64,000 nucleotides of DNA. Origin: Naegleria gruberi (taxonomy: Eukaryota). The notes beneath the pieces were generated by a model that saw only the letters and a program-made list of their open reading frames with translations, was not told the DNA's origin and did no database searches. The translations under genes were made by a program, and so were the position numbers. Shown here piece after piece: positions 5,341-59,633 of this stretch; position 1 is the first letter of the stretch; each line of letters opens with the position of its first letter. The DNA lies in NCBI GenBank assembly GCA_000004985.1, contig GG738854.1, one strand, 5' to 3'.

Positions 5341-5425
5341 GCTCATATAGCTCAGTGGTAGAGCATTTGTCTTATGAGAACTTAAGGTTAGCAGATGGCC
5401 GAGGGTTCGACCCCCTCTATGAGCA
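5341..5425 (+). tRNA. Intron-containing tRNA with a canonical cloverleaf. The anticodon loop is CUUAUG|A, giving anticodon UAU, which suggests tRNA-Ile(UAU). Position 37 is G, which is unusual. The intron is about 13 nt, located 3' of position 37.
   Basis: Acceptor stem GCTCATA pairs with TATGAGC, with discriminator A. D arm is GCTC-AGTGGTA-GAGC. Anticodon stem TTTGT/GCAGA has two G-U pairs. T arm is GAGGG-TTCGACC-CCCTC. The variable loop is 5 nt. There are 36 nt between the D arm and T arm where 22-23 are expected, so the extra is an intron. Confidence 0.6.
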
Positions 5426-5781
5426 GTTCAAATTTTTTGCTTTTTAGTAGTGTTAAAGATTTATTAGAAGATTTCAATTCCAATTAATTAGCTCCAATCT
5501 TTTGTAGAGAATAAGAAATCTTTACGAGGTTGTTTTTGAGAATACTTTCTCTTGACTACCATGGAATGCGAATCTCTTTGATTCCACTTCATACTGGTAA
5601 CCTGAATATTGTCCAACTTGTTTTTAAGTGGTTTGTCAGATACGTGGTGTAAATAGGGTTCGTCCTGGCCAAATGACTTTCCAGATGAAGATCTGCCAGA
5701 AGAGCTCCAAGGAGACAATTGTCCAAAACGAAAGCTTTGTAAAGAGATTAGGTTAGGTAATATAAAGCAAAAAATTTGAAC

Positions 5782-5866
5782 TGCTCATAGAGGGGGTCGA
5801 ACCCTCGGCCATCTGCTAACCTTAAGTTCTCATAAGACAAATGCTCTACCACTGAGCTATATGAGC
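5782..5866 (-). tRNA. Second, identical copy of the intron-containing tRNA (UAU anticodon), convergent with the first copy.
   Basis: This is the exact reverse complement of 5341..5425. It lies inside a perfect inverted repeat of about 140 bp. Confidence 0.6.
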
Positions 5867-6059
5867 TTCGCATATTTAAAAAATTATTCTTTTATATTCT
5901 TACCCATTCAACTTTTCTTGTCTCTTTATGGTTTGATGCTACATTTCAGAACCAACATTCATTCCTTTCTGGCCAGAATAAAAATTTAGAAAGATTATTT
6001 GATGAAATTGTTTACAAATTTAATGTAATCATCAATTTGTTCGTTTCAAAACAAAAAAA

Positions 6060-7079
6060 ATGATCAATCGCGATAATGATGAAGATAAAGTTTCTTTCAC
6101 CTTCTTTAATTTCACTCAATCCGAAGTCTGCAATCCTCTTTATGCTAAACTTCGTGAAAAACTTTCGTCCAACAAGAGCAAAACCTTCTCCATGCAATTT
6201 ACTCCCCACAAAACGATTGGCTATCAAAGGCCTATAATTACCGAGGACGGAGATGTGGAAGAAGTTTCTAATGAAGAGAACAAGTTGAAACTTCATTATC
6301 CTTCCGATATTAAAATTGCTCGCCATCATGGTTGTCTTGTAATTGCTGATGATCATAATGATAGAATAGTATTTCTCAATTTGGATAATTATCAATTGAG
6401 GACTGAATTTATTTTGGAAGAGAATGTCACTGATTTTTGGATTGAGTCTGATAGTGCTGGAAATGAATATATTTATTTTGGAGATAATGGAATTACTTTT
6501 AAATTTAATATTGCCAAATTGGTTGAACATGCACAAGTCAAGTTGAAAGATATAGAGCCTATGTGGAAGATTTCTGAAAAACTGTCTGGATCTATAATGG
6601 TAATACATGATACAAGTAGAAAGGAAAAGGTAGTATTGAGATGGAACAATGATGCACAAGGATTAAATGCTCATAGAGATTGTGATGGTTCTCTATTGGC
6701 CAAATATCCAGTCTTGTCGTTGTGTGATTCTCCTGGACTGTTTGCCATTTCAAATTCAGAATTCATTGCTCTCAATCACGAATCTAATATGGTCTTTAAA
6801 ATTACATTTACCGATGGCAAATGTGAAAACTCAGACATGTTTCAAGTACAAAATCATTGGAAACATCCACTTTCGGTTGCAAAAGAATTGAATCAACCTA
6901 GAATTTACATCTCAGATTATGGAAATAAGAGGATTGTTGTGTGGGACTTGTTGCAGGGGTGTGAAATTAAAATTCACCACGAGGAACATCTCCATCCATT
7001 TGGAATTTTCTATGACGATCAATCTGGACTACTCTATGTTGTCGATCAACAAGCTTCTATCATTCGAGTGTATCAGTAA
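6060..7079 (+). CDS. Hypothetical NHL-like beta-propeller protein.
   Basis: ATG follows an A-run (aaaaaaaATG). NHL-like blades: IYISDYGNKRIVVWD, LLYVVDQQASIIRVY, GCLVIADDHNDRIVF. Confidence 0.55.
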   Translation: MINRDNDEDKVSFTFFNFTQSEVCNPLYAKLREKLSSNKSKTFSMQFTPHKTIGYQRPIITEDGDVEEVSNEENKLKLHYPSDIKIARHHGCLVIADDHNDRIVFLNLDNYQLRTEFILEENVTDFWIESDSAGNEYIYFGDNGITFKFNIAKLVEHAQVKLKDIEPMWKISEKLSGSIMVIHDTSRKEKVVLRWNNDAQGLNAHRDCDGSLLAKYPVLSLCDSPGLFAISNSEFIALNHESNMVFKITFTDGKCENSDMFQVQNHWKHPLSVAKELNQPRIYISDYGNKRIVVWDLLQGCEIKIHHEEHLHPFGIFYDDQSGLLYVVDQQASIIRVYQ

Positions 7080-9135: not shown

Positions 9136-10326
9136 ATGAGTGAATTGAAAACCATCAAAGATCTGCGTTCCAATTTCACAGCCATCAAAAAGATTGTTCA
9201 GGATGGCGTTGCACAGGAACCTAATTCAAACACTTTAGGCACAATTATACGCTTGTTACAAAAGTATGAATATGATCCGAAAGAATTTTTTGGTACGGAG
9301 AAAGGCATTGATGAATATTCAATGTTGGAATTAAATATTTGTGATGACAGTAGTGAACAGAATATTTGTATGAAAACGATACTGTTGATTAATTCGTTTT
9401 GGTTATTGGAGGTGAAACTTGCTGCTAAGAATGCAAAAGAGTTTCGGCTATTTTTTAATTGCATTGAAAAGAAGGTTTTAACAAAGTTTTTTGATTGCCT
9501 GCAACGAATTTATAGAGAATCAAATGAAGGAGAGCTTAAAGAGTTCACAAGTGGAATGGAAAGTTTGGAGAAATGGCAACAGTTCATTTTACATTTGTAC
9601 ATGTGTATGAATAGTGACATTTATACTGGCGCTAATTCCCTAAATAATATAATGACATCACGTCCAACTATATTATTATCATTAGTGCTTTATCAACATT
9701 TTTCTGAAAAGAAGGAAAAATTCTTGAATGAGAATCCTGGAAAATCATTCAATTTGACAATAACTGAAAATTATCTCCTTTCTACTGCAATTCTTATTTC
9801 TGATGATTATGACCTCGACGAGATGAGTTCAGAATTAAAGCTTACCATGGACCACATTTCAAAAGTGTACATTGAATATTTATACAATTTGGTAGGGTTG
9901 ACCTTTGAACAAGATACTCCAAATCTAGTATCGCTTGGTATTGTTTCTGTGGCCCAACTATCAATACGTAATTGTGATTTTGTTCAAAGATTAATCAAAG
10001 ATGATTACAGAATTATACAAAATACAGAAAATTCAGTTATTATCACAGAAGATTTCATTAGTGAGAAAGTTCCAGACATCCAAAATAAGAAACGAAACCG
10101 TGGCGAAAGTGCTTTGGCGGTCAAAATTAAGCTGTTAACTCTAATTGATATTTTGCTAGATGCTGATTTTGAAGATTTCAATGAAAATCAAAAGGTAGAG
10201 TTTTGTCTGTACTTTAAAGAGTTGATTATTGAATCCCTTAATGATGAAATGATTAATGAGTCGGGAAGTTTAGTCGGTAAACAAGCTGTTGCCACAGCCA
10301 TTAGATCTATCTCAGTTGTTACTTAG
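9136..10326 (+). CDS. Hypothetical protein. It may be the 5' part of one larger gene continuing in the 10384..11712 ORF, because the two are in the same frame and separated only by one TAG.
   Basis: A 396-codon ORF with an ATG after an A-run. There is no recognisable domain. Confidence 0.5.
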   Translation: MSELKTIKDLRSNFTAIKKIVQDGVAQEPNSNTLGTIIRLLQKYEYDPKEFFGTEKGIDEYSMLELNICDDSSEQNICMKTILLINSFWLLEVKLAAKNAKEFRLFFNCIEKKVLTKFFDCLQRIYRESNEGELKEFTSGMESLEKWQQFILHLYMCMNSDIYTGANSLNNIMTSRPTILLSLVLYQHFSEKKEKFLNENPGKSFNLTITENYLLSTAILISDDYDLDEMSSELKLTMDHISKVYIEYLYNLVGLTFEQDTPNLVSLGIVSVAQLSIRNCDFVQRLIKDDYRIIQNTENSVIITEDFISEKVPDIQNKKRNRGESALAVKIKLLTLIDILLDADFEDFNENQKVEFCLYFKELIIESLNDEMINESGSLVGKQAVATAIRSISVVT

Positions 10327-10383
10327 ACTGAGGGTACTATAGATCTTTTATCAGACAATTTTAGGGAATACCTATTTAATATT

Positions 10384-14943: not shown

Positions 14944-16452
14944 TTACATAACTGGATTTGTAATGATAATGTCAATATCGAAAAGTTGATGGTTTTCTGG
15001 TGATTCATGCAAGTATGTTTTCAGTTTTGCAAGCATTTCCTTCTCACTCTTTGATGTAAATATTGGGAGATATGGTGAGCAAGCAACCATAGTATTCCAA
15101 CCTCCGCATGCAACACAAACAGCTTTCAATTGGATATTTCCCCCAGAGTTGATTTTCATAGAGTCTGGGAATAAATTCATTTCTGATAGAGTTGTTTGAG
15201 TTTTCAAAATTCCTGGTTGATTTTGTTCCTCCTTTGTACTTTGATTGAATCCACTGTGTCCAAACAAGTAAGCTTTACCTTCAGAATCAAGAGCTGCTGA
15301 GTGATAACCTCCACAACTCACTTGAACAATATTCTTGAAATTTTTGTGTTCAAATAAACGACAATCCTCAGCACCACTCTCGGATTTTCTATTGAGACAA
15401 TTATATTGATTTCTTCCGCATGAGTAGACCACCCCTTCCTGAGTAGTAAATAAGGTGTGATAGTAACCAGAGTCAGCTGTCACTACTTTGTGATTAAATC
15501 CTTCAACCTTTTTTGTTGTATGCTTTCCATTTGCTGATCCAAAAAGCATATGACCCAATTCACCACAAGCATAAACTTCTCCCTGATCAGTAATGAAAAA
15601 ACTATAGTCATAACCACCAGATGCAGAAATTAATTTAGGGATTCCAGTGATTTTAGTGATAGCTCTTCCAAAACCTTGCCCACAACAGTAGGCATTTCCA
15701 TCAAAACTTACAAAGATTGAATGATAGTAACCTGCGTGAATGGATCTGATCTTTTCAGGTATATCAATCTTGTGTGTCAAACCTTTGTATCCTTCACTCA
15801 ATTGACCATGAGAGTTATCTCCACAGCCGTACACATCACCTTCCTTGGATAAAAACAATGTAAAGTAATATCCACAAGATGCTTGAACAATAAAGTGAGG
15901 AATTAATTCAGAAAAAATTTTAAAATCTTTCAATTCACTTTCTGATCTATCAACTCCGACCTGACCATTAGAATTAGAACCACAGCCCAATGCAAATCCA
16001 TCTTCAGTAATTGCAATAGCTTCTGTATAGCCCATAACGACTGAACTAATCTTGAATGGTGATCGAATATATGCAGGATTCTCAGCATCAGAAATTGCGA
16101 TCCAATTATCACCAAGGCCTCTCATCGAACTAGTTTCACCAAAACTAAACAAAACAGCTTGGGAAGCTTCCAACAGAGAGAAGGATGTTGGTTCGGATTT
16201 ATCGTTACGATAGGCTATTCTAGCTTTTATCATTTCTTTAAATTTAGCAGTATAGAAAGTAGCCTGATCTTTACGAAACTTGGTATCTTGACTTTGATAG
16301 GAGGCATCAATGTGAGGAATACTCATACTAGGAATAATTCCAATAGCACCAAATGATTTGGATTCACCTTGAAGACCACCCGATCCATTGTTTGAAGTTT
16401 CGGTTGATGATTTTGGTTTCTTCTTGAAAATGTTGGTGACGAAAGAAAGCAT
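14944..16452 (-). CDS. RCC1-repeat (regulator of chromosome condensation-like) protein.
   Basis: Repeated RCC1 signatures: GCGSNSNGQVGV, YGCGDNSHGQLSEG, YACGELGHMLFG, YSCGRNQYNCLN, VSCGGYHSAALDSEGKAYLFGHSGFNQ. Confidence 0.8.
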   Translation of the reverse strand: MLSFVTNIFKKKPKSSTETSNNGSGGLQGESKSFGAIGIIPSMSIPHIDASYQSQDTKFRKDQATFYTAKFKEMIKARIAYRNDKSEPTSFSLLEASQAVLFSFGETSSMRGLGDNWIAISDAENPAYIRSPFKISSVVMGYTEAIAITEDGFALGCGSNSNGQVGVDRSESELKDFKIFSELIPHFIVQASCGYYFTLFLSKEGDVYGCGDNSHGQLSEGYKGLTHKIDIPEKIRSIHAGYYHSIFVSFDGNAYCCGQGFGRAITKITGIPKLISASGGYDYSFFITDQGEVYACGELGHMLFGSANGKHTTKKVEGFNHKVVTADSGYYHTLFTTQEGVVYSCGRNQYNCLNRKSESGAEDCRLFEHKNFKNIVQVSCGGYHSAALDSEGKAYLFGHSGFNQSTKEEQNQPGILKTQTTLSEMNLFPDSMKINSGGNIQLKAVCVACGGWNTMVACSPYLPIFTSKSEKEMLAKLKTYLHESPENHQLFDIDIIITNPVM

Positions 16453-27340: not shown

Positions 27341-28024
27341 TTATTTCTTTCCACAGAAAGTAAACTTTCCTTTAAGACATTCTTCAAGTTTTTCCCTATC
27401 ATCATATTCAAAACTATTCTTACATGAATTATTTTCCCAAATACGTTTTTCAGCCCAAGTTCCATTACAAGAAACAGTAAAACTTTCAGATCCAACTGAA
27501 ATACAAGTATTCAAAGGAGTTCCAGAAATTGACTTGACTGAATCATCTTTACAATCACTCTTTCCATTAATAACTGAATGCTTGATAGTCCACAACATTG
27601 GTGGATAATCACCAATATTGAAGGCACCACATTCCACTCTATAAGGATGATAAGGAGCAGTAGCTTGACACTCATTGGTAGAAATTACATTATCAGCATT
27701 AGTTAAACAATGTGAACAATTGGTATTGCAGGAAGTTTTATAGATTACTCTGACCTTATCTGAAGAAATTTGAGTACAGTGAGCAATTTCATAACCATAA
27801 TTGACTGGATCACTTGTCGGAACACAGACATTAGTTTTATCGAAAGAAACTGATTCGATATTGGTGTTGTCATTACATGATTTACCTTGTGAGTAGAATC
27901 TATATTTGATGAATTGGTTTTCTTGATGAGAGTAACAGATGGCAATGGCCAAGACGGAAAGAAGCAAGAGGATTGTGTTGAATTTCATTTGTGTGTAATT
28001 TTTTTTAACAATTTTGTTTCGCAT
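27341..28024 (-). CDS. Secreted Cys-rich protein, hypothetical.
   Basis: Signal peptide MKFNTILLLLSVLAIAICYS, followed by many regularly spaced Cys residues. Confidence 0.6.
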   Translation of the reverse strand: MRNKIVKKNYTQMKFNTILLLLSVLAIAICYSHQENQFIKYRFYSQGKSCNDNTNIESVSFDKTNVCVPTSDPVNYGYEIAHCTQISSDKVRVIYKTSCNTNCSHCLTNADNVISTNECQATAPYHPYRVECGAFNIGDYPPMLWTIKHSVINGKSDCKDDSVKSISGTPLNTCISVGSESFTVSCNGTWAEKRIWENNSCKNSFEYDDREKLEECLKGKFTFCGKK

Positions 28025-28332: not shown

Positions 28333-28405
28333 CGCCCCACGTGGGGCTCGAACCCACGACCGTTGGATTAAAAGTCCAACGCTCTACCGACTGAGCTAGC
28401 GGGGC
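28333..28405 (-). tRNA. tRNA-Lys(UUU).
   Basis: GCCCCGC-TA-GCTC-AGTCGGTA-GAGC-G-TTGGA-CTTTTAA-TCCAA-CGGTC-GTGGG-TTCGAGC-CCCAC-GTGGGGC-G. All stems pair, with one G-U pair in the acceptor stem. The ORF 28028..28423 translates this tRNA and is spurious. Confidence 0.9.
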
Positions 28406-37914: not shown

Positions 37915-39213
37915 ATGAATAATAATCAAAGATTTGATGTTTTGATTCTCTCCACCATTTTTTCATTTCTTCCCGCCAAAAATTATTTACTGAAAATTTG
38001 TCTTGTTTGTCGAGATTGGAATTTTTCAAATTCTTGTAAAATTAATAATCATGAGAATAATAACGATCAGAATTATCCTCTTCCGATGGTTGCACTTGAT
38101 TTATCCAACCGTAAGATTTTTGATGAAAAATTAGTAAAATTACTTGATGAGCAATTGGATCGGTATGATTGGAGAAATTTGAGAATATTAAATTTGGAGA
38201 AGAATCTTATTGAACGTATTGGTTGTTTGATGGAGACAGGGAGATCGTTGCAATTGAGTAATTTGAGAGTTTTAAATTTGAATGAAAATCAAATTGATGA
38301 GGAGTGTAGTTTGTTGTGTTGTGGTGTGGAAAATTTTATCAATTTGAAGGAATTATATTTGAGAACGAATTTTATTAGAAATATTGTTGTGAGAACGCAA
38401 TTTCCTGCTTTGGAAACGTTGGATTTGAGTGGTAATTGTATTGGAAATCAGGGAGTTGTTTCTTTATTGAAGGATGGTCTTGAAAATTTCCCAAACTTGC
38501 GAAAATTAGTGCTTTCTAATGTGGATATGAAGAGTTTGGATCCATTGCTCATGAATTGCCACAATTGCCCAAAATTGAAATGTTTAGATTTTAGTAATAA
38601 TTTTATTTATAACTCACAAACGATTCATTATAAGCATTTTAATTTTCCATTATTGGATGAGCTATATTGCTCAGCAGTTAATTCTACAGCTCGTTTACAA
38701 GAATTAATTGTGGAAAAATCACTTGATTCCTCCCTCACAACACTTGATTTATCACAATGTTATGTTGGAGAAGTTTTTTTGAAAGCTCTTTCTTTGGGAG
38801 AATTCAAGAAATTGACTAAACTCTTACTATCTAATAATGAAATTGGAAATGAGGAAGTTCTGCTATTGGGAAAACTTGACATGCCGAATCTAGTTCATCT
38901 CAATCTTGATGATAACCTAATTGGATTGGAAGGCGCTAACATCATTTCCAATTTTACTAATTTTCCTCAATTAGAATTTCTTTCCTGTAGAAAATATCCC
39001 GCAACAAAACACAAAACATTTGAAAGTTATTCATTGAATAATTTTCTTGAGGATTGCAGGGAGGAATTGGGAGAGGAATTAGAGGAGGAAGAAGAAGATT
39101 GTGAAGAGGATTATTATGGAGGTTTACGTAATTCGAAAGGAAAGGAAATTAGTTTTGTATCGTCGTTTGTTAGCTTTACTTGGACAAAAAGTGATTATGT
39201 CTATGTCTATTAA
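37915..39213 (+). CDS. F-box-like / RNI-type leucine-rich-repeat protein.
   Basis: N-terminal FDVLILSTIFSFLPAKNYLLKICLVCRDWNF. LRRs: LRILNLEKNLIERIG, LRVLNLNENQIDEE, LETLDLSGNCIGNQGVVSL, LRKLVLSNVDMKSL. Acidic C-terminal tail. Confidence 0.75.
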   Translation: MNNNQRFDVLILSTIFSFLPAKNYLLKICLVCRDWNFSNSCKINNHENNNDQNYPLPMVALDLSNRKIFDEKLVKLLDEQLDRYDWRNLRILNLEKNLIERIGCLMETGRSLQLSNLRVLNLNENQIDEECSLLCCGVENFINLKELYLRTNFIRNIVVRTQFPALETLDLSGNCIGNQGVVSLLKDGLENFPNLRKLVLSNVDMKSLDPLLMNCHNCPKLKCLDFSNNFIYNSQTIHYKHFNFPLLDELYCSAVNSTARLQELIVEKSLDSSLTTLDLSQCYVGEVFLKALSLGEFKKLTKLLLSNNEIGNEEVLLLGKLDMPNLVHLNLDDNLIGLEGANIISNFTNFPQLEFLSCRKYPATKHKTFESYSLNNFLEDCREELGEELEEEEEDCEEDYYGGLRNSKGKEISFVSSFVSFTWTKSDYVYVY

Positions 39214-39290
39214 TGGTTTAGAATAGCAACTGACTGCTATTTTGGTTTGTTTATTCCATCAAATAAACCGACATTTGACTTTAAAAAAAA

Positions 39291-39895
39291 TGAGACAAGA
39301 CAAGATAACATTCAACCCAGATAATTATTGTCTCATCTATGAAGAGGTAATGACATGCCAAGAAACAAGAAATATCTTTAAAGAATTCTTGAAGGAAAAC
39401 ATGGCGGAAGAACCACTTCTTTATTTGGACGAATGTGAAAAGTATAAAGTGGAATATGCCAAGTTGAAAGAGAAATTTAACGGTTTATCTTTGATGGTTA
39501 AAAGAAGTAGTAGTGTAGGAAATGTTTCTGATTTGGGAAACGAGACAAGTGGCAAGGAATGGGATAAAAATCAGTTGACTAAATTATTTGTGAATTTAAA
39601 AGGAATTATTGATGAGTTTATTGTGGAAGAGGCAACTAAGGAGTTGAATTTGTCGGTTAGGAAGTGGACGATAATGGAATGGCAGATAATAGAAGCAATG
39701 ATGAACGGATTCGAACAGGATTCGTCCAATTTTGAACTTTCGAATAATTTGTATAGGAAACTGGATATTAATGTGCTGTTTGAAAAGGTAGATTTAGTGG
39801 TTATGATAGATTTGAAAATGGATCAATTTCCTCGATTTATTCGTTCAAATTTAGCTCGAAAATTTCTATTAGAAAAGGGAGAACATTTCACATGA
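39291..39895 (+). CDS. RGS-domain protein, copy 1. The ORF ends at a TGA that falls at a conserved Arg position when compared with the paralogue at about 56.7-58.3 kb. Homologous sequence continues in frame, and across a 41-nt GTATGT...TTTTAG intron, out to 40296.
   Basis: RGS block: YEEVMTCQETRNIFKEFLKENMAEEPLLYLDECEKYKVEY. Downstream of the TGA the same frame reads TVAIDISKGFKVDLRFKPKDLKDKEINDNHIYFG. That aligns with paralogue RSIAIDVSRGFHVDIRFLPKDLSKNFIYDKDIFFG. The terminal block ELNFRKCLEENCVKYPNRSWYKEWLALKQNPTQF* aligns with LKELVEENLKAHPQKSWYRDYLSLFHNKSL*. Confidence 0.6.
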
Positions 39896-40339
39896 ACTGT
39901 GGCAATCGATATTTCGAAAGGTTTCAAAGTTGATTTGAGATTTAAACCAAAAGATTTGAAAGATAAGGAAATTAATGACAATCACATTTATTTTGGTATG
40001 TTAAATTGCAAAATTTTCATTGTTAACCATTTTTAGGATTAACCATCGTTAACATTCCAATATTTTCGTCATTCTTTTACAAACAAATGGCGATGAAAAG
40101 GACGAAAAGTATAAGGAAATCAATGATGAAAGAATTGGATCGATTAACAGATTATGGACGAAAGAAAATGGATACTAGTTCATTTGTGGATGAATTGAAT
40201 TTTAGAAAGTGTTTGGAAGAAAATTGTGTGAAATATCCGAATCGATCATGGTATAAGGAGTGGCTGGCTCTAAAACAAAATCCAACTCAATTTTAAAGAA
40301 TTCCAATTTACAGAAAACTTAACATTTTGAAGTGTTATT

Positions 40340-45126: not shown

Positions 45127-46206
45127 TTAATGCTTGTCTGTGATGAGATAGGATAATTGGAGAGCTTCGTTCTCTGTTAAAATTCCATCACCATCCAAAT
45201 CGTAAGGTGAGAGAACTCCCTTGCAAATGTGGTAATGTGTCTCCACTTCAGAGACTTGTATTTTACCTTCCACTTTCAATTGTTCAATTGATTTTCTGAC
45301 TCTCTTTTTCCATTCTTCCAATTCATGCAAATCTTCAATATTAGGAATGCTTAGCATTTGGTATTGATTCATTTTGGAGAAACCAGTTTCTGTTTTCTCA
45401 TGTCTGAACTTTTCCAAATCTGCTAAAAAATCCTTCTTCACCATTGATATGGGTGGAGATTCTACATTATCAATATAATTGCTCAATTTTGGAATTACAT
45501 CCTTCTTCCACTGATCAACTGACTTGTTCATTACTTCTTCGTATAATTGTTTGAAAATCCAAGCTTTGATATTTTGTCGAACAAGGTATTGAGGGTGAAT
45601 TAATAAATCAAAAACAGTTTCCAAATCCAACTTGTTGAGATAAACTGCTGCATAGGCAACACAAGCTCTATTACTCAGAAGTGAGTCCTTTGTTTCTATA
45701 TTTATGAGATTTCTCAAGAGTGGTTTAATTTCCTTATCTATCACAACAGTTTGACATCCTACACAAGCACTTAATTTCAAGGCATAATTTGGTGTATCAA
45801 TTGAACTGTTTGGCAATTTAAGGGCTCTTTTGATCATATCTGCTCTCATTGTTTCCGAAAGAATAACAAACGGATTCATCAGTAAATTACAAAGAGATTG
45901 GAAAGGATAAAATTCATTATCAGAAGATTCTGGCAATTTTCTAGTTCCTCTCAAATCAGCAGATATAAACCCGTGATCTATTATTTGCTTGAAAATATCC
46001 TCATGGTCTTGTAACGTTTCCTTCGTTAATCCTCTCCTCAACTTTTGCATATTATCAACATCTCTTGCCCTCAAAAATCCCATAACACTCTCCTCACAAC
46101 CACTTCCAAGATCCGACAAGTTTGCTCCCGAAGAAAACATTGATAAGGAATCACTCACCGACGATGATGACGTTAAGTGTTCGCTGTTATTGTTATTGTT
46201 GCTCAT
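45127..46206 (-). CDS. Hypothetical protein with a C-terminal EF-hand.
   Basis: Canonical EF loop DLDGDGILTENE near the C-terminus. Poly-N N-terminus. ATG at 46206. Confidence 0.6.
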   Translation of the reverse strand: MSNNNNNSEHLTSSSSVSDSLSMFSSGANLSDLGSGCEESVMGFLRARDVDNMQKLRRGLTKETLQDHEDIFKQIIDHGFISADLRGTRKLPESSDNEFYPFQSLCNLLMNPFVILSETMRADMIKRALKLPNSSIDTPNYALKLSACVGCQTVVIDKEIKPLLRNLINIETKDSLLSNRACVAYAAVYLNKLDLETVFDLLIHPQYLVRQNIKAWIFKQLYEEVMNKSVDQWKKDVIPKLSNYIDNVESPPISMVKKDFLADLEKFRHEKTETGFSKMNQYQMLSIPNIEDLHELEEWKKRVRKSIEQLKVEGKIQVSEVETHYHICKGVLSPYDLDGDGILTENEALQLSYLITDKH

Positions 46207-52712: not shown

Positions 52713-55700
52713 TTACATGAAAAGTGGGCTATCATCACATAATCTGGCAATTTCATACAAATGTTGGATAATTTCCTCAAAGCTTGGTCTTTCATTTGGG
52801 AGCTGATGCCAACACTGTTGCACTAGTTTGATATACTTGGAAACACCTTCAACAAATAGATTGCTGTTCTCATTATTGATTGGTTGAATAAATAATCTTG
52901 TCCATTCCTTCAATTGTTCATCATTTGAGAAGGGAATGTTTGGTCTTTTTCCTCTCACTATCTGGGTAATAACTGTTAGACTGTTACAATCTGACATCTC
53001 TGTAAAATAGTTCATCTTTTTGTGATTGTGAGTCGTATAAGGAACTTCTTCAAAAAAGAGTGACCACATAATAATTCCAAACGAATAGACATCAATCTTG
53101 GATGCATTCTTGATTCTTTCCTCTTTTGATAAGGAAGATCCTCCAAATGTACCTGATCCAATTGATGAATTACTATTCATATTTGAATTGGAATAATGGA
53201 TGGAGTCGGTAGCGTTTGAGAATCCAGAGAACTGTTCATTTTCAAAAAGCTCAGAATTATTAGAAACTCCAGAATCAAAATTCTCTGGAAATATTTGTTT
53301 AACACAGTGAAACTAGAATAAAACTTACCTGGAGGGCAATATAGAAGTGTACCAATGTTCAATGTCATACTAGTTTCAAACATGTTATTTCCAACAATTC
53401 TTGAAAGTCCAAAATCACAAATCTTTACACAATTTTTATCATCAAGAAGTACGTTTGCAATTTGAATGCCAGAATTCAATAAATTGTAATATAAATTACA
53501 TACCTGGTTTCAAATCACGATGACAAATCATATTTGGTTTAAGTGAATGCAAATAGGACATTCCTCTACTCACTCCCATCAAAATATCCAATTTCTGTTT
53601 CATAGTCAACTTTTGGCGACCAACTTTGCATTCACTGATTAGTTTTTCCAAACTACCTCCTTTCATGAATTCAATCACCATATATTTCTGGTTCTTGTTT
53701 GGAACACAAAAACCGTACATTGTAACTATTTCATCTTAAGTTATTTGAAACATAGGGGAATATTACATACCAATATTAGGATGTCTCAAACTAATTAAAA
53801 GTGCTCCTTCTCGTTCAAAAACATCTTCGTCATCTTGGTCCTTGATTGATTTAATTGCTACTTCAATTCCTTTCCATAATCCTTGATAAATCATTGATTG
53901 ACCTCCTTCTCCAATACGTTTCTGAATTGTAATATCCTCGGTTGGAATAATAAATGACGCCTTACTGTTAGGTCTATCCTCAGACTCTTCGAAAATAATC
54001 TTCTTATCAAGTAATACCCTTTCCATTTCAGATTCAGCTCTGGTTCGTTTTCTCAGTAGCTTTGATTTGTATCTAGCAACACAAAGTCCAATTAATCCAA
54101 TACAAGTGGTAATCAATGTCACTGCTGCTAAGCTTGTGACTAGAGGGAGAATGTAAAAAATGTTCACACAACCTGGTGCCTCATATCTATAGAAAGAAGG
54201 GCAAGAATCGAGAATAATATCCACCGTATAAGTTACTCTCTCATAGGTTACTGAAAGCTGCACACTTCTTGCTTCCTTGACTTCAGAATTTGAATACAAG
54301 CTAAAAGGCAGCCTGAAATCAGTATTGTTTGAGGAATCTGTCTTTAAAAACAGACTAGAATCACTAACTTGAAGAGTAATTGGAACCTTAGGTGTTTCAA
54401 TTAATCTTCCAAAAATGTTTCTTGCCTCAATCTCAATAATAAATTTTTGCCCCAAATAGGCTTTTTGAGTACCATTATAAACCGTGTGAGGATTGACATC
54501 AAGCTCAATAACTTTGTACTCAAATTCAAAACAAGGAGAGGAAATAGAGTCGTCATTGTCATAATAGTATTCTTCATTGATATAAATGGACCTATTACTG
54601 AGCACTTCTGAGTATCCAATTTTTCCATATTTTGCAGTGTTTGCATAAAAGACATTACTTGGAGTAATCGTGACCCGTATCTCTTTTGGTGCTTCCCCAA
54701 AGAAAATTACACCTCCCTTCTTTGCTATGTTTCGTTCAAAGTAACTTGTACTTATTTCAGAACTTCCTGTTACATAGAGTGCACCTCCTATGGTGTTTTC
54801 ATTTCCATTTCCAATAAATTTCGAGCCATCCACAGATAACACGTTTATATCGTATTTCGCACGAGACCTATATTCATAAAATATCGCTGAGCCCTTTGGA
54901 GCAACGTTATTGTAAAACTCACAATTCTTGACATGAAAAATAGCACTTGATTCAATATAAATTGATGATGTAGTGCAATTTAAAAATCTGGAATTTTGCA
55001 CAGTAGAAGATTTTTCGAAATAGTCATTGGATGGAATAATAGTATCATACGAAATTACATAATATATTGCTCCATTATAAGCATTTGGTTTCACATTAAT
55101 AAATTCTGAATGATCAACAAGGAAATAATGAATATCTTGCATGTGTAAACAAGTTGCAGAAATGTTGTTACATGACAGGTTTGTAATTTGTAACTCTTTG
55201 CATGTACTGATAAATATCATACTGCCTTGTGTGTTACTGTCATAGACTCTAACATTGTCAATCACTAGTTTGACGATAGAGGATACAAATAGCCAATTGG
55301 TTCCCATTGAAATGTTACTGTTAGTTATGTATGCGTCAATGGAATATCCAATATATAATACAGGATATCCTATTGCAAACGTTCCAATATAATCAATATT
55401 GTCAATAATTATTTCATTAGATTCAATGATTGAAAGTATAGAATCATCTCCAGTATCACACTCAAGTATTTTAACATCATCTACCCTTTCAATGAAGAGT
55501 TTGGCTTTCAGAGCAGAGTTTGTAATTTGCAAAATTCTTGAATTTCCTATAAAAGTATCCCCTCTGATTGTCACATGATCAAGCTCAATAATATCATAGT
55601 TAGCCATTCTCAAGTTTGTATCTGATATATCAACTTGTTGAAATATTGATACAGTTCCTTTTCTTGGTGAAAGAACCATTTGATTATTATATGTAAATTC

Positions 55701-56264
55701 ACCAAATTTCAAAAGTGATGCACTGAATTTACAATTTGTAAATGTTGCTTTGGGTGCACTCGTCAACGACATAGCAACATTGGTAAATCCAATATCTTGT
55801 GCCTCCACTGAAATGATGTTATTTTGATCAGTAAGAAGAGTTTGCCTTCCAACATGACAAACAATTGAGGCCATACCAGAATTCAATCCATTCTCAAATC
55901 TAACTCGATAACTAAAACCAGTTCTCTTATAAAAAGAAGGAACCTGACATTGATTCTCTGCTTGAATCCTAAAAACCACCGAGATAATAGTCTCTCCAAA
56001 CATCATTGTTTTTACCATATTATTCAAATGATTAACAGCACTACTCATATAATTACACAAATACTTTCCAGCACCTCCGGTACATGATGAACTAAATATC
56101 GAACTGATTGTATACTGATAACTCCTTTCCGAAACTCCAAGTACCAAATTATTATTTTCATTAATTATATTAGTACACAATAAAACAACAATGATCATCA
56201 AGTAATAAATTATTCTTGATGAACCCGAAGCGACTCTCCTTCTTGTATTCGTCATCACCATCAT
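52713..56264 (-). CDS. Receptor-like TKL kinase with a Pmp-like beta-helix ectodomain. Exons: 56264..53771, 53725..53504, about 53457..53329, and 53285..52713. The exon 2 to exon 3 junction is non-canonical.
   Basis: Signal anchor MMVMTNTRRRVASGSSRIIYYLMIIVVLLCTNII. Ectodomain repeats: NGAIYYVIS, KGSAIFYEY, GGALYVTGS, KGGVIFFGE. TM: LPLVTSLAAVTLITTCIGLIGLCVA. Kinase: IGEGGQSMIYQGLWKGIEVAIK, HPNI|VTMYGFC (45-nt intron 53726..53770), HRDLKP|ANVLLDD, DFGLSRI, LLYCPPG|ENF (43-nt intron 53286..53328), DVYSFGIIMW. Confidence 0.7.
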
Positions 56265-56707
56265 CGTGTGTCTAGCTTCTTTAAATTTGATGACGGTTGT
56301 GTTGTGGTCAATGAATTGCCGGCATAAAATCTTTGTGAGATTCAAAGACCAAAATTATTTGTGAGATGCAAACACAATTTTTTTCTTCTTGAAAAGAGTG
56401 GAAAATGCGTTGTGAATCTTAATTACGGTTAGACTAATAAGGGGAAATTTTCCGTATTTGGTCCCTTAATAGAATTTATTTTTTGAAAAAGATGGAAGTT
56501 TATTTTAGAAAATGATAAGAAAGGGGTTTTGAAATGTCAATGAAGGGTCATGACAGTATTGAGATAACAGTGGACAGAATCTGTCATCGAATTGACACCT
56601 GGCAGTTTGTTTGAAATGAACAGAGATAAACAAACGGTAAAAAAATGCCTCTCCTTAACAGCTCAACTAAAGATAATGACCTGCAAGCTTCCAGAAATTC
56701 AAAAGCA

Positions 56708-58302
56708 GTTAAAAACGACGTACCGAAACATCACCAACTATCATTAATCAAGGAATCAATAACAGCAATGGGGAATTAGTTTTCAATAATGGACGAAACA
56801 GACACTTTACTGCCAATAATTACAAAGTTCTCTATGAAGAGTTGATGAACAACCCAAAAGGAAGAGAAATCTTTCAGAAATATCTGAAAAATGAAGCATG
56901 TAGCGAAGAGCCAATTCTTTTCCTTAATGAAATGGATGAATTACGAGTCTAATATAACAAGATTAATAATTCGAATGAAATTTCATTGAAATTATGGAAG
57001 AAATATTTGGAGAAATTGTTTCGTATGGTTGAGAAATTCATCAGAGAGAAGAGTAATACTGAATTAAATCTTCAAGAAGCTCAACAGGAAAAATTATTGA
57101 GGAAAATTGATGAAGAAATTGCACCGCAATTTTCAAGAATATTTCTTTGTAATAATGGAGGAAAGAAAGTTTCGTCTCCTTCCTCGCCCTCTTCGCCAAC
57201 AAGTTCAAAAAGCTCCAAGTCAACCGAAAGCTATGAATCTTTCAGTAACCAATCTGTTGAATCAATAATAGAACAAGAATTGCAGAGCTATCTCAATATT
57301 GTCGATCCAGATGTATTATTTAATGAAATTGTCATATCAGTGAATGTTGATTTAAAGCTGGATCAATTTCCACGATTTTCCAGAAGTAAATTTCTCCTTG
57401 ATTTCCTTAACAAGCAAGGTGAAGCTTTCACCAGATCCATAGCCATCGATGTGTCCAGAGGATTTCACGTGGACATTCGATTTCTCCCAAAAGATTTATC
57501 CAAAAACTTTATCTACGACAAGGACATTTTCTTTGGATTTAGTTTAATTGAAGATTCACCAGATTGGCAAGTCATTCCTTGCTCTGCCATGTCAAACCAA
57601 GCTCAACTCTACCACTCCAACACATCCTACATATTTGGAAATAATGCAACTGGTATGAAACTCTACAAGATGGTCACAATTCTGCCCTACAAACTGGAAG
57701 ATGTCTTTTCAGCATTTTGTTTCATTCAAGGTGAAGACACTGGAGATCGATTGACTGAAAATCGAATCATTGGATCAAATGCTCCCAAACAGGCCATGTC
57801 CATGACTGGAGTGGATGAGAAGACTAATCCACTTGCCATTCGATATGTCACTTCATCATTGAAATTGTTACTTCCTGGACTAAAGGAAAGAGAATTTCCA
57901 AGAAGTTTAACTTGTGTCTATGATTGTGGATTGGATGCTTATATTAATGTTGGACACACGAGTCGTTATTCATTTCATGATGTGTCGAAAGAGAGAGTGG
58001 AGATGGATATGTTCTTTGTAAATATCATGTATCGAATAGGAGATTCGACAAGATTCGTATATGTTATTTACAGTGATGCACATACGCCCAAGGTATTGGA
58101 TTCGATGTTTGCAAAGGCTCATTGGAAACAACGTTGTGTGAGATTGGAACAAACATTCTTTCAATTATTACAAACTCACCAAACAAGTGAACTTTCAGAT
58201 AATTTTAAACTAAAAGAACTAGTTGAAGAAAACCTGAAAGCACATCCTCAAAAATCATGGTACAGAGATTATCTGAGTTTGTTTCATAATAAATCTCTCT
58301 AA
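56708..58302 (+). CDS. RGS-domain protein, copy 2, larger paralogue. There is an in-frame TAA at 56950-56952 at a conserved Glu position, and no in-frame ATG upstream of the RGS block. Possibly a pseudogene, or the 5' exon structure is unresolved.
   Basis: Frame-C translation ...NNYKVLYEELMNNPKGREIFQKYLKNEACSEEPILFLNEMDELRV*YNKINN aligns with copy 1 ...DNYCLIYEEVMTCQETRNIFKEFLKENMAEEPLLYLDECEKYKVEYAKLKE. Specifically GTC TAA TAT AAC AAG aligns with GTG GAA TAT GCC AAG. Downstream, 438 codons are open to 58302. Confidence 0.55.
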
Positions 58303-58511: not shown

Positions 58512-59633
58512 ATGACTTCTATCATCACCAACCAAACCTATGTCATTACTGCAACAACTGCTGATAGTGTTGCAAACCTTGTTGTTGATAGTGTAACTTT
58601 GATGGCAACAGCTCTCGTGATTATTCCAACACTCATTGTTTATTTCAAGAGAGATTCGTATTTGATTTTTAAAAGTCTAGTAGAAACTTGCAATTCGAAC
58701 ATGCATGCACCAGATCCCAGAACCAAATCAAAAGGTTTCTTCTTTTGCTTGATGAATAGTTTAGTTTTATTTCTGATATATCGAGTACTCATCGAAGGAC
58801 TCACAATCGCTCAGCACACTCAAGAATTACGAAAGAATGTCGAAACCTTTGTATTATTATTGAATATAAGAAGAATTTTAGATTACATTGGCATGTATTG
58901 GTTCTTAACCTTATTCACATTCATCATCCCAATTTGGATGAAAGTTTGCATTACATGGATTTCCACACAACGAAACCGAAAAATCATGAAAATTACAATT
59001 GGAATTCTTCTCATTCTTGTCAATGTGTTGGGATTCTGTGGTTTCTTACCAGTTACTGTCTTGTCAATTATTAGTGCAATTGATACAAATTTTGAGAGTA
59101 ATGATTTATTGAGAAAGATTTTAACTTATGGAATTGGAACACCACTTGTTGGTATTTCAACTGCAATTGTTTTCTTTTTGAGTATTGGAGTGGTGGTAAT
59201 GATTGTTATCATGTTGAGAGATGCTTCAAAGAAACAACCTGATAATAGTGAGCAATATCACATTCAAAGACAAGCTATTGTCAAATTGACTGTTGGAGTT
59301 ATTGTTTTGGCAGCTGCTGTCTTGATTGAAACAATTGGAGTTGCTGTGAATGGAGCTAATGTTCCAAATTATATTGTATTTCCATTGGCTAAGGGAATTC
59401 CATATGTTTTCTTTGCATTGTGTGTGGATTTAATATTTTGGCCATTTCCTCTGCCAATTCTGAGTCAACCAGTGCAATTTGTCATGCAAGAATTGAAGTT
59501 TTCCACCATTGTTAATTTACCATCAATAGAAAAGAAGAAGAAATTGGAGCAACAAGCAACACTCAGTAATCAATCCGCTAATCCTGAGACTAAACATGAG
59601 GAAATTCAATTGGAAGATCAATCAAATGTTTAA
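58512..59633 (+). CDS. Seven-transmembrane receptor-like protein (putative GPCR-like).
   Basis: Seven hydrophobic helices: LMATALVIIPTLIVYF, FFFCLMNSLVLFLIYRVLIEGL, YWFLTLFTFIIPIWMKVCITWI, ITIGILLILVNVLGFCGFLPVTVLSIISAI, IGTPLVGISTAIVFFLSIGVVVMIVIML, IVKLTVGVIVLAAAVLIETIGVAV, PYVFFALCVDLIFWPFPLPIL. Extracellular N-terminus and charged C-terminal tail. ATG after aaaaaacaaaATG. Confidence 0.65.
   Translation: MTSIITNQTYVITATTADSVANLVVDSVTLMATALVIIPTLIVYFKRDSYLIFKSLVETCNSNMHAPDPRTKSKGFFFCLMNSLVLFLIYRVLIEGLTIAQHTQELRKNVETFVLLLNIRRILDYIGMYWFLTLFTFIIPIWMKVCITWISTQRNRKIMKITIGILLILVNVLGFCGFLPVTVLSIISAIDTNFESNDLLRKILTYGIGTPLVGISTAIVFFLSIGVVVMIVIMLRDASKKQPDNSEQYHIQRQAIVKLTVGVIVLAAAVLIETIGVAVNGANVPNYIVFPLAKGIPYVFFALCVDLIFWPFPLPILSQPVQFVMQELKFSTIVNLPSIEKKKKLEQQATLSNQSANPETKHEEIQLEDQSNV

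What the first reader, a model, noticed from the sequence alone, without database searches (positions are those of the whole stretch)
56708..58302. RGS paralogue 2 also carries an in-frame stop (TAA for Glu) inside the RGS domain, and it sits directly upstream of a 7TM receptor gene
GTC TAA TAT AAC AAG in copy 2 aligns codon-for-codon with GTG GAA TAT GCC AAG in copy 1, so this is GAA to TAA. The frame stays open on both sides, and there is no in-frame ATG 5' of the RGS block. Two paralogues that each hold a different nonsense codon at conserved positions is unexpected. Possible explanations are parallel pseudogenisation of a family, programmed readthrough, or assembly errors. The next gene (58512..59633) encodes a 7TM receptor-like protein, which places a GPCR candidate and its RGS regulator side by side.
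Basis: seen in the sequence. Interest (0 to 1): 0.6.

Follow-up and report, generated by a model that had tools for sequence, protein, structure and literature searches.

The report
Broken RGS-START gene copy in Naegleria
One copy of a Naegleria gruberi signalling gene (an RGS domain fused to a lipid-binding START domain) carries a real premature stop codon. It is most likely a recently inactivated copy, which is an ordinary event in a small gene family and not a sign of unusual decoding.

Summary
The window is Naegleria gruberi NEG-M nuclear DNA. TAA at 56950-56952 sits in an otherwise open 529-codon frame, at a family-conserved Glu, and splits a Pfam RGS domain. The frame has no ATG before the RGS block.

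It is not an intron. Homology to eight relatives runs straight through the stop, and the six intact family genes I could read as DNA are intronless with their own ATG. It is not a code change. TAA ends 23 of 30 long ORFs here, and the other apparent in-frame stops are 42- and 66-nt introns.

GenBank sidesteps the stop with a 425-aa model (XP_002680263.1) that starts at ATG 57025.

Best reading (0.62): a young pseudogene or null allele, GAA>TAA, probably with a second 5' lesion.

- Copy 1 (39.25-40.28 kb) has a complete RGS domain, then TGA, a ~213-aa deletion and a frame change.
- The family is RGS plus a START fold, which Pfam does not detect.
- The neighbour (58512-59633) is a real 7TM bundle, but GPCR membership and conserved linkage are not supported.

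One oddity remains. A 98%-identical metagenome strain has GAA>TAA at a conserved Glu of that 7TM gene.

A base-call error cannot be excluded, because no independent sequence of the site was reachable.

The parts
56616..56745 (+). ATG-initiated 43-codon ORF in a different frame that overlaps the start of the RGS frame. It is a candidate for the original 5' end of the gene.
   Evidence: One search lists the ORF. One search shows that removing one A from the A5 run fuses this ATG to the RGS frame (MNRDKQ...QLKRRTETSP...GELVF...). This is inference only. An alternative is ATG 56645, which would need a 1-nt insertion.
56711..56715 (+). A5 homopolymer, candidate site of a 1-nt insertion (a second lesion)
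   Evidence: No consensus GTAAGT/GTATGT intron can join any upstream ATG to the RGS frame.
56713..56949 (+). Upstream open segment (79 codons). It encodes the conserved GE(L/I)(V/I)(F/Y) motif and the first third of the RGS domain (YKVLYEELM, EEPILFL).
   Evidence: Pfam RGS 25.3 bits, profile positions 2-38
56950..56952 (+). In-frame TAA at a family-conserved Glu; GAA>TAA by one G>T change
   Evidence: GAA>TAA is the commonest one-step nonsense path in this ORF (32 of 274 paths).
56953..58302 (+). Downstream open segment (449 codons plus terminator TAA 58300-02). It holds the rest of the RGS domain (to about 57408, with a Ser-rich insert) and a START-like domain (about 57418-58299).
   Evidence: RGS profile 68-116, 15.4 bits. 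The START fold was shown on the model of paralogue P0003.
57025..58302 (+). GenBank gene model XP_002680263.1 / EFC47519.1 (NAEGRDRAFT_64585, UniProt D2V6X0), 425 aa. It starts at the first ATG after the stop.
39251..40281 (+). Copy 1 of the family. It has a complete RGS domain, then TGA at 39893-39895 at the invariant Arg of FTR (AGA in copy 2). About 213 aa of the START domain are replaced by 95 nt, and the C-terminal remnant (40096-40281) is in another frame.
   Evidence: (RGS 38.1 bits, profile 2-113),
58512..59633 (+). Neighbouring gene XP_002680264.1 (NAEGRDRAFT_64586), 373 aa, a seven-helix membrane protein. Codon 95 (GAA, 58794-58796) is TAA in a 98%-identical metagenome strain.

Best explanation
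The region is gene NAEGRDRAFT_64585 of Naegleria gruberi NEG-M. It belongs to a small heterolobosean family whose intact genes are intronless ORFs of about 500-620 codons. They encode an N-terminal RGS domain (a GTPase-activating domain for G-alpha subunits) followed by a START-fold lipid-binding domain.

In this copy a single G>T change turned a conserved Glu codon (GAA) into TAA, the normal terminator of this genome, 80 codons into the conserved frame and inside the RGS domain. The frame has also lost contact with a start codon. The most likely cause is a 1-nt change in the A5 run at 56711-15.

Translation would stop after at most about 110 residues, so no RGS-START protein is made. This copy is a very young pseudogene, or a null allele on the assembled haplotype of a heterozygous strain. 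The 425-aa GenBank protein is an annotation device that avoids the stop.

**Shown:** the stop, its exon location, the family and its domains, and TAA as the normal terminator.

**Inferred:** that the base is real, that no protein is made, and the 5' frameshift.
For: **Organism and gene model.**
- XP_002680263.1 is 100% identical to the ORF from ATG 57025.

**The stop lies in coding sequence.**
- The alignment with eight relatives is colinear and ungapped across it.
- The RGS domain spans it.
- Every in-frame GT..AG segment that could remove it lacks the GTAAGT/GTATGT donor seen in this window, and would delete the conserved V-E-Y-x-K and (I/V)SLK residues.

**Intact family genes read as DNA are uninterrupted ORFs with their own ATG.**
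- Three lie in tandem in N. lovaniensis.
- P0004 was read on two metagenome contigs.

**No ATG precedes the RGS block, and no consensus intron supplies one**. A 1-nt contraction of the A5 run would supply one.

**TAA is the ordinary terminator here.**
- It ends 23 of 30 long ORFs.
- The internal TAA-T tetranucleotide equals that of 8 of 23 natural terminators.
- The other apparent in-frame stops in the window are a 66-nt intron, a 42-nt intron and a 5' leader.

**Decay in this family happens.** Copy 1 in the same window carries TGA, a deletion and a frame change.

**The strain is heterozygous.** A second NEG-M scaffold carries alleles of window genes that differ at about 1% of residues. PMC9928731, citing Fritz-Laylin 2010, reports heterozygosity.
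Against: - **Few lesions.** Only one certain lesion is present, plus one inferred.
- **Conservation is normal.** Copy 2 keeps 91 of 113 family-conserved columns (19% deviating). That is the same range as intact members (15-25%), so there is no sign of relaxed constraint. Inactivation must be very recent, or absent.
- **No second look at the base.** No independent sequence of the site could be obtained, so a base-call error is not excluded.
- **A parallel case next door.** In a sister strain the neighbouring gene also shows GAA>TAA at a conserved Glu. There are 16 synonymous and only 2 missense differences around it. That is a coincidence if both are plain null alleles.
Confidence: 0.62

Rival explanations
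1. Base-call or consensus error in the 2010 Sanger draft. The real codon is GAA, the gene is intact, and the missing ATG may likewise be a homopolymer miscall in the A5 run.
For: The ORF is otherwise perfect, and its conservation equals that of intact members. Both putative lesions are single-base events, one of them in a homopolymer. No second sequence of the site was available.
Against: A finished-quality error that happens to create a stop in a given 1.6-kb gene is rare (prior knowledge of Sanger consensus accuracy, not tested here). Two independent errors in one gene would be rarer still. Decay is demonstrably occurring in this family (copy 1).
Confidence: 0.13
2. The gene survives as a shortened product. 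Transcription or translation starts at ATG 57025, as annotated, and gives a START-domain protein that carries only the C-terminal half of the RGS domain.
For: A 425-codon ORF remains intact downstream and is the GenBank model. Its START-region conservation is normal. Many database relatives match only profile positions ~180-535, that is, the end of the RGS domain plus START.
Against: The ATG lies inside the RGS helical bundle, so the remnant would lack about the first 65 residues of that domain. The intact state of the ORF is equally expected for a very young pseudogene. There is no evidence for an internal promoter.
Confidence: 0.12
3. The UAA is occasionally or regularly decoded (as Glu, or by near-cognate readthrough), so a full-length RGS-START protein is still made.
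For: The TAA sits exactly at a conserved Glu, and the frame is intact on both sides. A sister strain has TAA at a family-invariant Glu of the adjacent 7TM gene, with strongly purifying substitution patterns on both sides (16 synonymous and 2 missense).
Against: - TAA ends 23 of 30 long ORFs, and the TAA-T context is that of normal terminators.
- No other exonic in-frame stop was found in about 16,000 ORF codons of the window.
- No further nonsense difference appears in 1,710 codons compared with the sister strain.
- The window holds no suppressor tRNA.
- GAA>TAA is simply the commonest nonsense path in this AT-rich ORF.
- The literature search found nothing on Naegleria readthrough.
Confidence: 0.03
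4. The TAA is removed by splicing of a tiny in-frame intron, for example 56947-57000 (54 nt) or 56947-57012 (66 nt).
For: This genome has short in-frame introns that contain stops: 42 nt at 4471-4512(-) and 66 nt at 10277-10342. GT..AG pairs of 54 and 66 nt exist around the TAA.
Against: - The donor would be GTCTAA, and the acceptors GGAAG or TGGAG. These are unlike the GTAAGT/GTATGT...YAG sites seen here.
- The excised codons are homologous to coding residues of the paralogues, VEYxK and (I/V)SLK.
- Intact family genes are intronless.
Confidence: 0.03

Closest known systems
RGS proteins (Pfam PF00615; solved relatives RGS17, RGS10, GAIP, RGS4, RGS16)
   Same: The sequence profile matches above Pfam's cut-off and matches solved RGS domains (E 2e-5 to 4e-3). 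The N-terminal FxxLM...F..(F/Y)L...EE..LF motif and the C-terminal D(Q/S)FPRF motif are both present.
   Different: - The domain carries a long Ser-rich insert.
- It has EEP where R4-type RGS domains have EEN (alignment).
- It is fused to a START fold.
- In this copy it is cut by a stop codon.
- GAP activity is untested.
START-domain lipid-transfer proteins (STARD10, CERT, StAR, STARD4/5). For architecture, the RhoGAP-START proteins DLC1/DLC2 (STARD12/13).
   Same: The C-terminal ~290 residues of the family model adopt the helix-grip START fold. Foldseek E is 5e-8 to 1e-6, and the TM-score normalised to the target is 0.6-0.74, including against StarD13/DLC2. Like the DLC proteins, the protein joins a GTPase-activating domain to a START domain (architecture comparison from general knowledge).
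   Different: Pfam START (PF01852) gives no sequence-level match. The GAP module is an RGS domain (for heterotrimeric G-alpha) and not a RhoGAP. A full-text search found no paper that mentions RGS, START domain and Naegleria together.
Unitary or duplicated-gene pseudogenes made by a single nonsense mutation, and the common annotation practice of truncating a model to the next ATG
   Same: There is a disabling stop in an otherwise homologous ORF. A sister copy in the same window is in a more advanced state of decay. The database model starts just downstream of the stop.
   Different: No further decay is visible yet. Expression status is unknown. It may be only one allele of a heterozygous strain.
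Stop-codon reassignment or dual use with UAR = Glu (Blastocrithidia nonstop; PMC12153298, abstract seen)
   Same: TAA occupies a conserved Glu position, here and in the neighbouring gene of a sister strain.
   Different: In those organisms in-frame stops are frequent across genes. Here there is one in the window, and TAA is the dominant terminator.
Seven-transmembrane bundles of the rhodopsin/GPCR type (microbial rhodopsins, Ste2, class A GPCRs, TMEM87A)
   Different: - There is no sequence-family match: Pfam gives nothing and the PDB profile search gives nothing.
- Foldseek E is >= 0.04 and TM-scores are below 0.5.
- The fold search does not separate GPCRs from rhodopsins or Golgi 7TM proteins.
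- UniRef's label 'THH1/TOM1/TOM3 domain' for a homologue was not reproduced by Pfam here.

Membership tests
RGS domain proteins (PF00615) | Sequence match to the RGS profile above the curated threshold | tested here: met
   38.3 bits against a cut-off of 23.9 with the stop bridged. The upstream fragment alone scores 25.3 bits, and the downstream part alone 15.4 bits, which is below the cut-off. The family profile hits solved RGS17, RGS10, GAIP and RGS4.
RGS domain proteins (PF00615) | Uninterrupted domain able to fold as the helical bundle | tested here: not met
   TAA at 56950-52 separates profile positions 2-38 from the rest. Intact paralogues have the full domain.
RGS domain proteins (PF00615) | G-alpha-contacting Asn (RGS4 Asn128) and GAP activity | not testable with these tools
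   The family-invariant ELNL motif (57058-57072 in copy 2) resembles RGS4's EVNL, which I recall from memory. That part of the alignment was not printed. Activity needs biochemistry.
START (helix-grip) lipid-binding domains | Helix-grip fold | tested here: met
   AF2 model of paralogue P0003 (mean pLDDT 59.6, START region mostly 70-90). Foldseek against PDB: STARD10, CERT, STARD5 and StAR at E 5e-8 to 2e-7, target-normalised TM 0.62-0.73. This was tested on the paralogue, not on copy 2 itself; the two are 43% identical and colinear.
START (helix-grip) lipid-binding domains | Sequence match to Pfam START | tested here: not met
   No START hit at E <= 0.1 in copy 2 or in four relatives.
Pseudogene | Disabling mutation in sequence homologous to a functional gene | tested here: met
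   A nonsense codon at a conserved Glu and no in-frame start codon. Intact relatives are intronless with their own ATG.
Pseudogene | Relaxed selective constraint or further decay | tested here: inconclusive
   19% of conserved columns deviate, against 15-25% in intact members. No orthologue is close enough for dN/dS (nearest relative 43-45% identical).
Pseudogene | No functional product | not testable with these tools
   Needs RNA-seq, ribosome profiling or proteomics.
Programmed stop-codon readthrough | Leaky stop and context (usually UGA or UAG with a stimulatory 3' context) | tested here: not met
   The stop is UAA followed by U, the same tetranucleotide as 8 of 23 normal terminators in the window. 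The known leaky contexts are recalled from general knowledge.
Programmed stop-codon readthrough | Stop conserved in orthologues, with coding conservation downstream | not testable with these tools
   No orthologous sequence of this copy was found in proteins or JGI metagenomes.
Reassigned genetic code (UAA = Glu or Gln) | Frequent in-frame TAA in conserved genes, with TAA rare as a terminator | tested here: not met
   TAA ends 23 of 30 long ORFs. The other candidates are introns or a leader. One nonsense difference appears in 1,710 codons against the sister strain.
Reassigned genetic code (UAA = Glu or Gln) | tRNA with an anticodon complementary to UAA | tested here: inconclusive
   The window holds only tRNA-Lys(UUU) and two tRNA-Ile(UAU).
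G-protein-coupled receptors (for the neighbour 58512-59633) | Seven-helix bundle of the rhodopsin/GPCR fold | tested here: met
   [not shown]
G-protein-coupled receptors (for the neighbour 58512-59633) | Membership of a recognised GPCR sequence family | tested here: not met
   No Pfam family in the protein or in four homologues. No PDB sequence match at E <= 1. Foldseek E >= 0.04.
G-protein-coupled receptors (for the neighbour 58512-59633) | Conserved linkage to, or functional coupling with, the RGS gene | tested here: not met
   No 7TM homologue lies within 6 kb of RGS-START genes in L006, or elsewhere on contigs L007 and L008. Paralogues of the two families lie on contigs of different length in N. 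gruberi and N. lovaniensis. Coupling itself is not testable.

The most novel reading that the evidence does not exclude
Naegleria gruberi tolerates, or at low level decodes, UAA at Glu positions. On this reading, TAA-interrupted genes such as this RGS-START copy and the 7TM gene of the sister strain still yield full-length protein. That would be an incipient dual-use stop codon in a heterolobosean with an otherwise standard code.
Probability: 0.03. Interest if true: 0.8.

Novelty: new member of a known kind. Interest (0 to 1): 0.2.

Why it matters
**For the finding itself, little.**
- It is a nonsense-disabled copy in a small lineage-specific family.
- It shows that the GenBank/UniProt entry D2V6X0 is an artefactually truncated model that hides both the RGS domain and the lesion.

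**Two by-products are of modest value.**
- Heteroloboseans have a family that joins an RGS domain to a START-fold domain. Sequence profiles miss the START part, so this family has probably gone unnoticed. It is a G-alpha counterpart of the RhoGAP-START (DLC) architecture, and it suggests lipid-regulated or membrane-targeted control of G-protein signalling.
- The GAA>TAA pair in two adjacent genes of two strains is a cheap, precise thing to check for stop-codon tolerance in Naegleria. The second haplotype of this very region is already in GenBank.

Tried and rejected
**Searches that gave nothing**
- **Alternative genetic code.** Rejected on terminator usage and on the lack of other exonic in-frame stops.
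- **Other 'in-frame stops' in the window.**
  - 10324 TAG lies in a 66-nt intron (10277-10342).
  - 4489 TAA(-) lies in a 42-nt intron, at the same position as a GTAAGT intron of the tandem paralogue.
  - 28030 TAG(-) lies in a leader next to tRNA-Lys.
- **Introns around the TAA or joining an upstream ATG.** I enumerated 58 and 49 GT..AG options. None has a consensus donor, and all of those spanning the TAA delete conserved residues.
- **Suppressor tRNA.** ARAGORN's odd 'tRNA-??? (ta)' calls are ordinary tRNA-Ile(UAU) genes with a 13-nt intron.
- **Independent sequence of the site.**
  - The look-up of encoding contigs has no N. gruberi NCBI records.
  - The JGI metagenome scan with six peptide patterns found no relative.
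  - The protein search found no other allele.
- **Fishing more sister-strain contigs.** Cluster look-ups then gave three more contigs.
- **AFDB fold search.** Not available.
- **Literature.** Nothing on Naegleria readthrough or on RGS-START.

**Corrections to my own earlier inferences**
- I first thought the 7TM gene was unannotated, because one search shows only cluster representatives. One search shows it is XP_002680264.1.
- My first by-eye reading of the ATG coordinates was off by one and was redone by script.
Full report
**What the window is.** The DNA is 31-37% G+C, apart from one 26% stretch at 12-14 kb. The ORF downstream of the flagged stop is 100% identical to 'predicted protein [Naegleria gruberi]'. 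That protein is XP_002680263.1 / EFC47519.1, NAEGRDRAFT_64585, UniProt D2V6X0, 425 aa, on a 665,159-bp scaffold. Other window ORFs are exact matches to NEG-M proteins on the same scaffold. The window is therefore nuclear DNA of N. gruberi NEG-M.

**The observation.**
- TAA at 56950-56952 lies in a frame that is open for 79 codons upstream (from 56713) and 449 codons downstream, to TAA 58300-02.
- The median stop-to-stop distance in the window is 8 codons, and the longest open stretch in 20 shuffles is 157 codons.
- With the stop bridged, Pfam RGS scores 38.3 bits (cut-off 23.9) across the stop.
- The upstream 79 residues alone score 25.3 bits (profile positions 2-38). The downstream part holds profile positions 68-116. 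The stop therefore splits the RGS domain.
- The five codons GTC TAA TAT AAC AAG match GTG GAA TAT GCC AAG of copy 1 at 39449-39463.
- In an alignment with copy 1 and seven relatives from N. gruberi, N. lovaniensis, Willaertia magna and metagenomes, the column is E in five, D in one and C in two.
- The first in-frame ATG (56845) is the family-invariant Met inside the RGS block.
- All elements of the observation are confirmed.

**Is the stop in an exon?** This genome has very short introns. Several of them are multiples of three and contain stops, so they look like in-frame stops.
- I found 58- and 46-nt introns with GTATGT donors at about 7572 and 8373.
- A 66-nt intron (10277-10342) contains the TAG at 10324.
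- A 42-nt intron (4471-4512, minus strand) contains the TAA at 4489. It lies at the same position as a GTAAGT intron in the tandem paralogue.
- The third candidate, 28030, is a leader next to a tRNA-Lys gene.

I therefore enumerated every in-frame GT..AG segment that spans 56950.
- The only ones of Naegleria-like size start at GTCTAA (56947) and end at GGAAG or TGGAG (54 and 66 nt).
- They have non-consensus sites.
- They would remove V-E-Y-x-K and (I/V)SLK, residues that align with coding residues of the paralogues.

The intact family genes I could read as DNA are single uninterrupted ORFs with their own ATG. These are three tandem genes in N. lovaniensis (L006 3980-5815, 6001-7578, 7884-9518) and P0004 on two metagenome contigs. 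The TAA is exonic.

**Is TAA a sense codon here?** No.
- TAA ends 23 of 30 long ORFs, including this gene and its neighbour.
- The internal TAA is followed by T, like 8 of 23 natural terminators.
- The window contains only tRNA-Lys(UUU) and two tRNA-Ile(UAU) genes with 13-nt introns.
- Full-text searches found nothing on readthrough in Naegleria.

**The 5' end.**
- Two ATG-initiated ORFs in the other two frames overlap the start of the RGS frame: 56616-56745 and 56645-56777.
- None of 49 GT..AG combinations that would join an upstream ATG to the RGS frame has a consensus donor.
- Removing one A from the A5 run at 56711-15 fuses ATG 56616 to the RGS frame.
- Because intact relatives are intronless, I infer a second lesion, a homopolymer indel. 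This is not shown.

**What the family is.**
- A profile of the family matches solved RGS domains: RGS17, RGS10, GAIP, RGS4 and RGS16, at E 2e-5 to 4e-3.
- An AlphaFold model of the intact N. gruberi paralogue P0003 has a helical N-terminal half and an alpha/beta C-terminal half.
- Foldseek places the C-terminal half in the START fold: STARD10, CERT, STARD5, StAR and StarD13, at E 5e-8 to 1e-6 and target-normalised TM 0.6-0.74.
- Pfam sees no START domain in any member.
- An exhaustive HMMER search finds 66 cluster representatives at E <= 1e-30. About 20 of them match nearly the whole length of the profile.
- I found no paper that mentions this combination in Naegleria.

**Copy 1.**
- P0003 residues 96-342 map to 39311-40000, and residues 556-614 map to 40096-40272 in another frame. 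About 213 residues of the START domain are therefore replaced by 95 nt.
- The stop is TGA at 39893, where copy 2 has AGA and the family has an invariant Arg.
- The RGS domain of copy 1 is complete (38.1 bits, profile 2-113) and has an in-frame ATG. Copy 1 is either dead or reduced to an RGS-only gene.
- The two copies are only 32-36% identical, so they are old paralogues and not a recent pair.

**How degraded is copy 2?** Not measurably.
- It keeps 91 of 113 columns conserved in the other full-length members (19% deviating). Intact members deviate at 15-25%.
- Its nearest relative is 43-45% identical, too distant for dN/dS.
- Inactivation is therefore very recent, or the base is wrong, or the stop is tolerated.

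**Independent sequence.** None could be obtained for the site. Two relevant things turned up.

First, a second NEG-M scaffold of 43,759 bp carries alleles of window genes.
- One is a partial RCC1 gene equal to window 16452-15943(-).
- The other is an allele of 45127-46206(-) with 4 of 359 residues different.
- The alternative haplotype of this region is therefore public. If it is colinear, it would extend to about 59.7 kb.
- No RGS or 7TM allele from it is among the annotated proteins.

Second, metagenome run ERR1078381 contains a strain about 98% identical in DNA.
- Over 1,710 aligned codons in five genes there are 32 synonymous, 16 missense and one nonsense difference.
- The nonsense difference is GAA>TAA at codon 95 of the neighbouring 7TM gene (58794-96). 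That Glu is present in every homologue that covers the position.
- The gene shows 16 synonymous and 2 conservative missense differences around it.
- Two GAA/TAA differences at conserved Glu codons in adjacent genes of two strains is odd. GAA>TAA is, however, the commonest one-step nonsense path in the RGS ORF (32 of 274) and a common one in the 7TM ORF (9 of 160).
- The metagenome base rests on one run of unknown depth, and the pattern was noticed after the fact.
- I treat it as unexplained but weak.

**The neighbour.** The ORF 58512-59633 is XP_002680264.1.
- It has seven hydrophobic segments and an N-terminal NQT sequon.
- Its AlphaFold model has seven long helices (mean pLDDT 65).
- Foldseek gives only E >= 0.04.
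- No Pfam family or PDB sequence match exists for it or its homologues.

It is a genuine 7TM bundle of the rhodopsin/GPCR fold type, but its family is unassigned. Linkage with RGS-START genes is not conserved.
- No homologue lies near the RGS-START genes in L006, L007 or L008.
- Paralogues of the two families sit on different contigs.

**Verdict.**
- The most likely explanation (0.62) is a young pseudogene or null allele, made by GAA>TAA and probably also by a 5' frameshift. The GenBank model papers over it.
- Rivals are a base-call error (0.13), a surviving START-only product from ATG 57025 (0.12), readthrough or UAA-as-Glu (0.03) and a tiny intron (0.03).
- The finding is ordinary.
- The RGS-START architecture and the second TAA-for-Glu are the only points worth a follow-up. 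The follow-up is cheap, because the second haplotype and the metagenome reads are public.

Noticed in passing
window 58794-58796; L001 375-377 and L002 33-35: In a ~98%-identical Naegleria strain from metagenome run ERR1078381, the 7TM gene next door has TAA where NEG-M has GAA (Glu95). That Glu is conserved in every homologue covering the position. The rest of the gene shows 16 synonymous and 2 conservative missense differences. The ENA and Logan assemblies of that run both show the TAA.
   Followed up: partly
window ~15943 to possibly ~59700 (equivalent region): A second N. gruberi NEG-M scaffold (43,759 bp) carries diverged alleles of window genes: XP_002668813.1 for the RCC1 gene at 14944-16452(-), and XP_002668816.1 for 45127-46206(-), with about 1% of residues different. 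An alternative haplotype of this region is therefore in GenBank. Its DNA could not be fetched.
   Followed up: partly
window 56833-58299; P0003 model m872abace3310: The family joins an RGS domain to a START-fold domain that Pfam does not detect. There are 66 cluster representatives at E <= 1e-30 in the global protein set. No paper was found on this combination.
   Followed up: partly
L006 3980-9518 (N. lovaniensis PYSW02000024.1): Three intronless RGS-START genes (611, 525 and 544 aa) lie head to tail, so the family forms a tandem array in N. lovaniensis. In N. gruberi the two window copies lie 17 kb apart on the same strand, and both are damaged.
   Followed up: partly
window 39290-39895: Copy 1 keeps an in-frame ATG and a complete RGS domain (Pfam 38.1 bits) and stops right after it. 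It could be a functional RGS-only gene and not a dead copy. Its ATG lies only about 77 nt after the stop of the upstream LRR gene (37915-39213).
   Followed up: no
window 5341-5425 (+) and 5782-5866 (-); L005: Two identical tRNA-Ile(UAU) genes with a 13-nt intron form an inverted pair about 360 nt apart. The sister-strain contig L005 lacks window 5450-6072, which includes the second copy.
   Followed up: partly
window 10277-10342 (+) and 4471-4512 (-): These are short in-frame introns (66 and 42 nt) that contain stop codons and mimic in-frame nonsense codons inside long open frames. The 42-nt one has a GTTCGT donor and lies at the same position as a GTAAGT intron in the tandem paralogue at about 3204(-).
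   Followed up: yes
[not shown]
   Followed up: no
window 28333-28405 (-): A tRNA-Lys(UUU) gene lies just upstream of the secreted Cys-rich protein gene at 27341-27988(-). Its translation makes the upstream frame look open.
   Followed up: yes
window 53763-56345 (-) and 52713-53180 (-): A large ORF ends in ...RHPNIGM, in the middle of a kinase motif. A kinase C-terminal fragment is encoded about 600 nt downstream. This is probably one receptor-kinase-like gene split by an intron.
   Followed up: no
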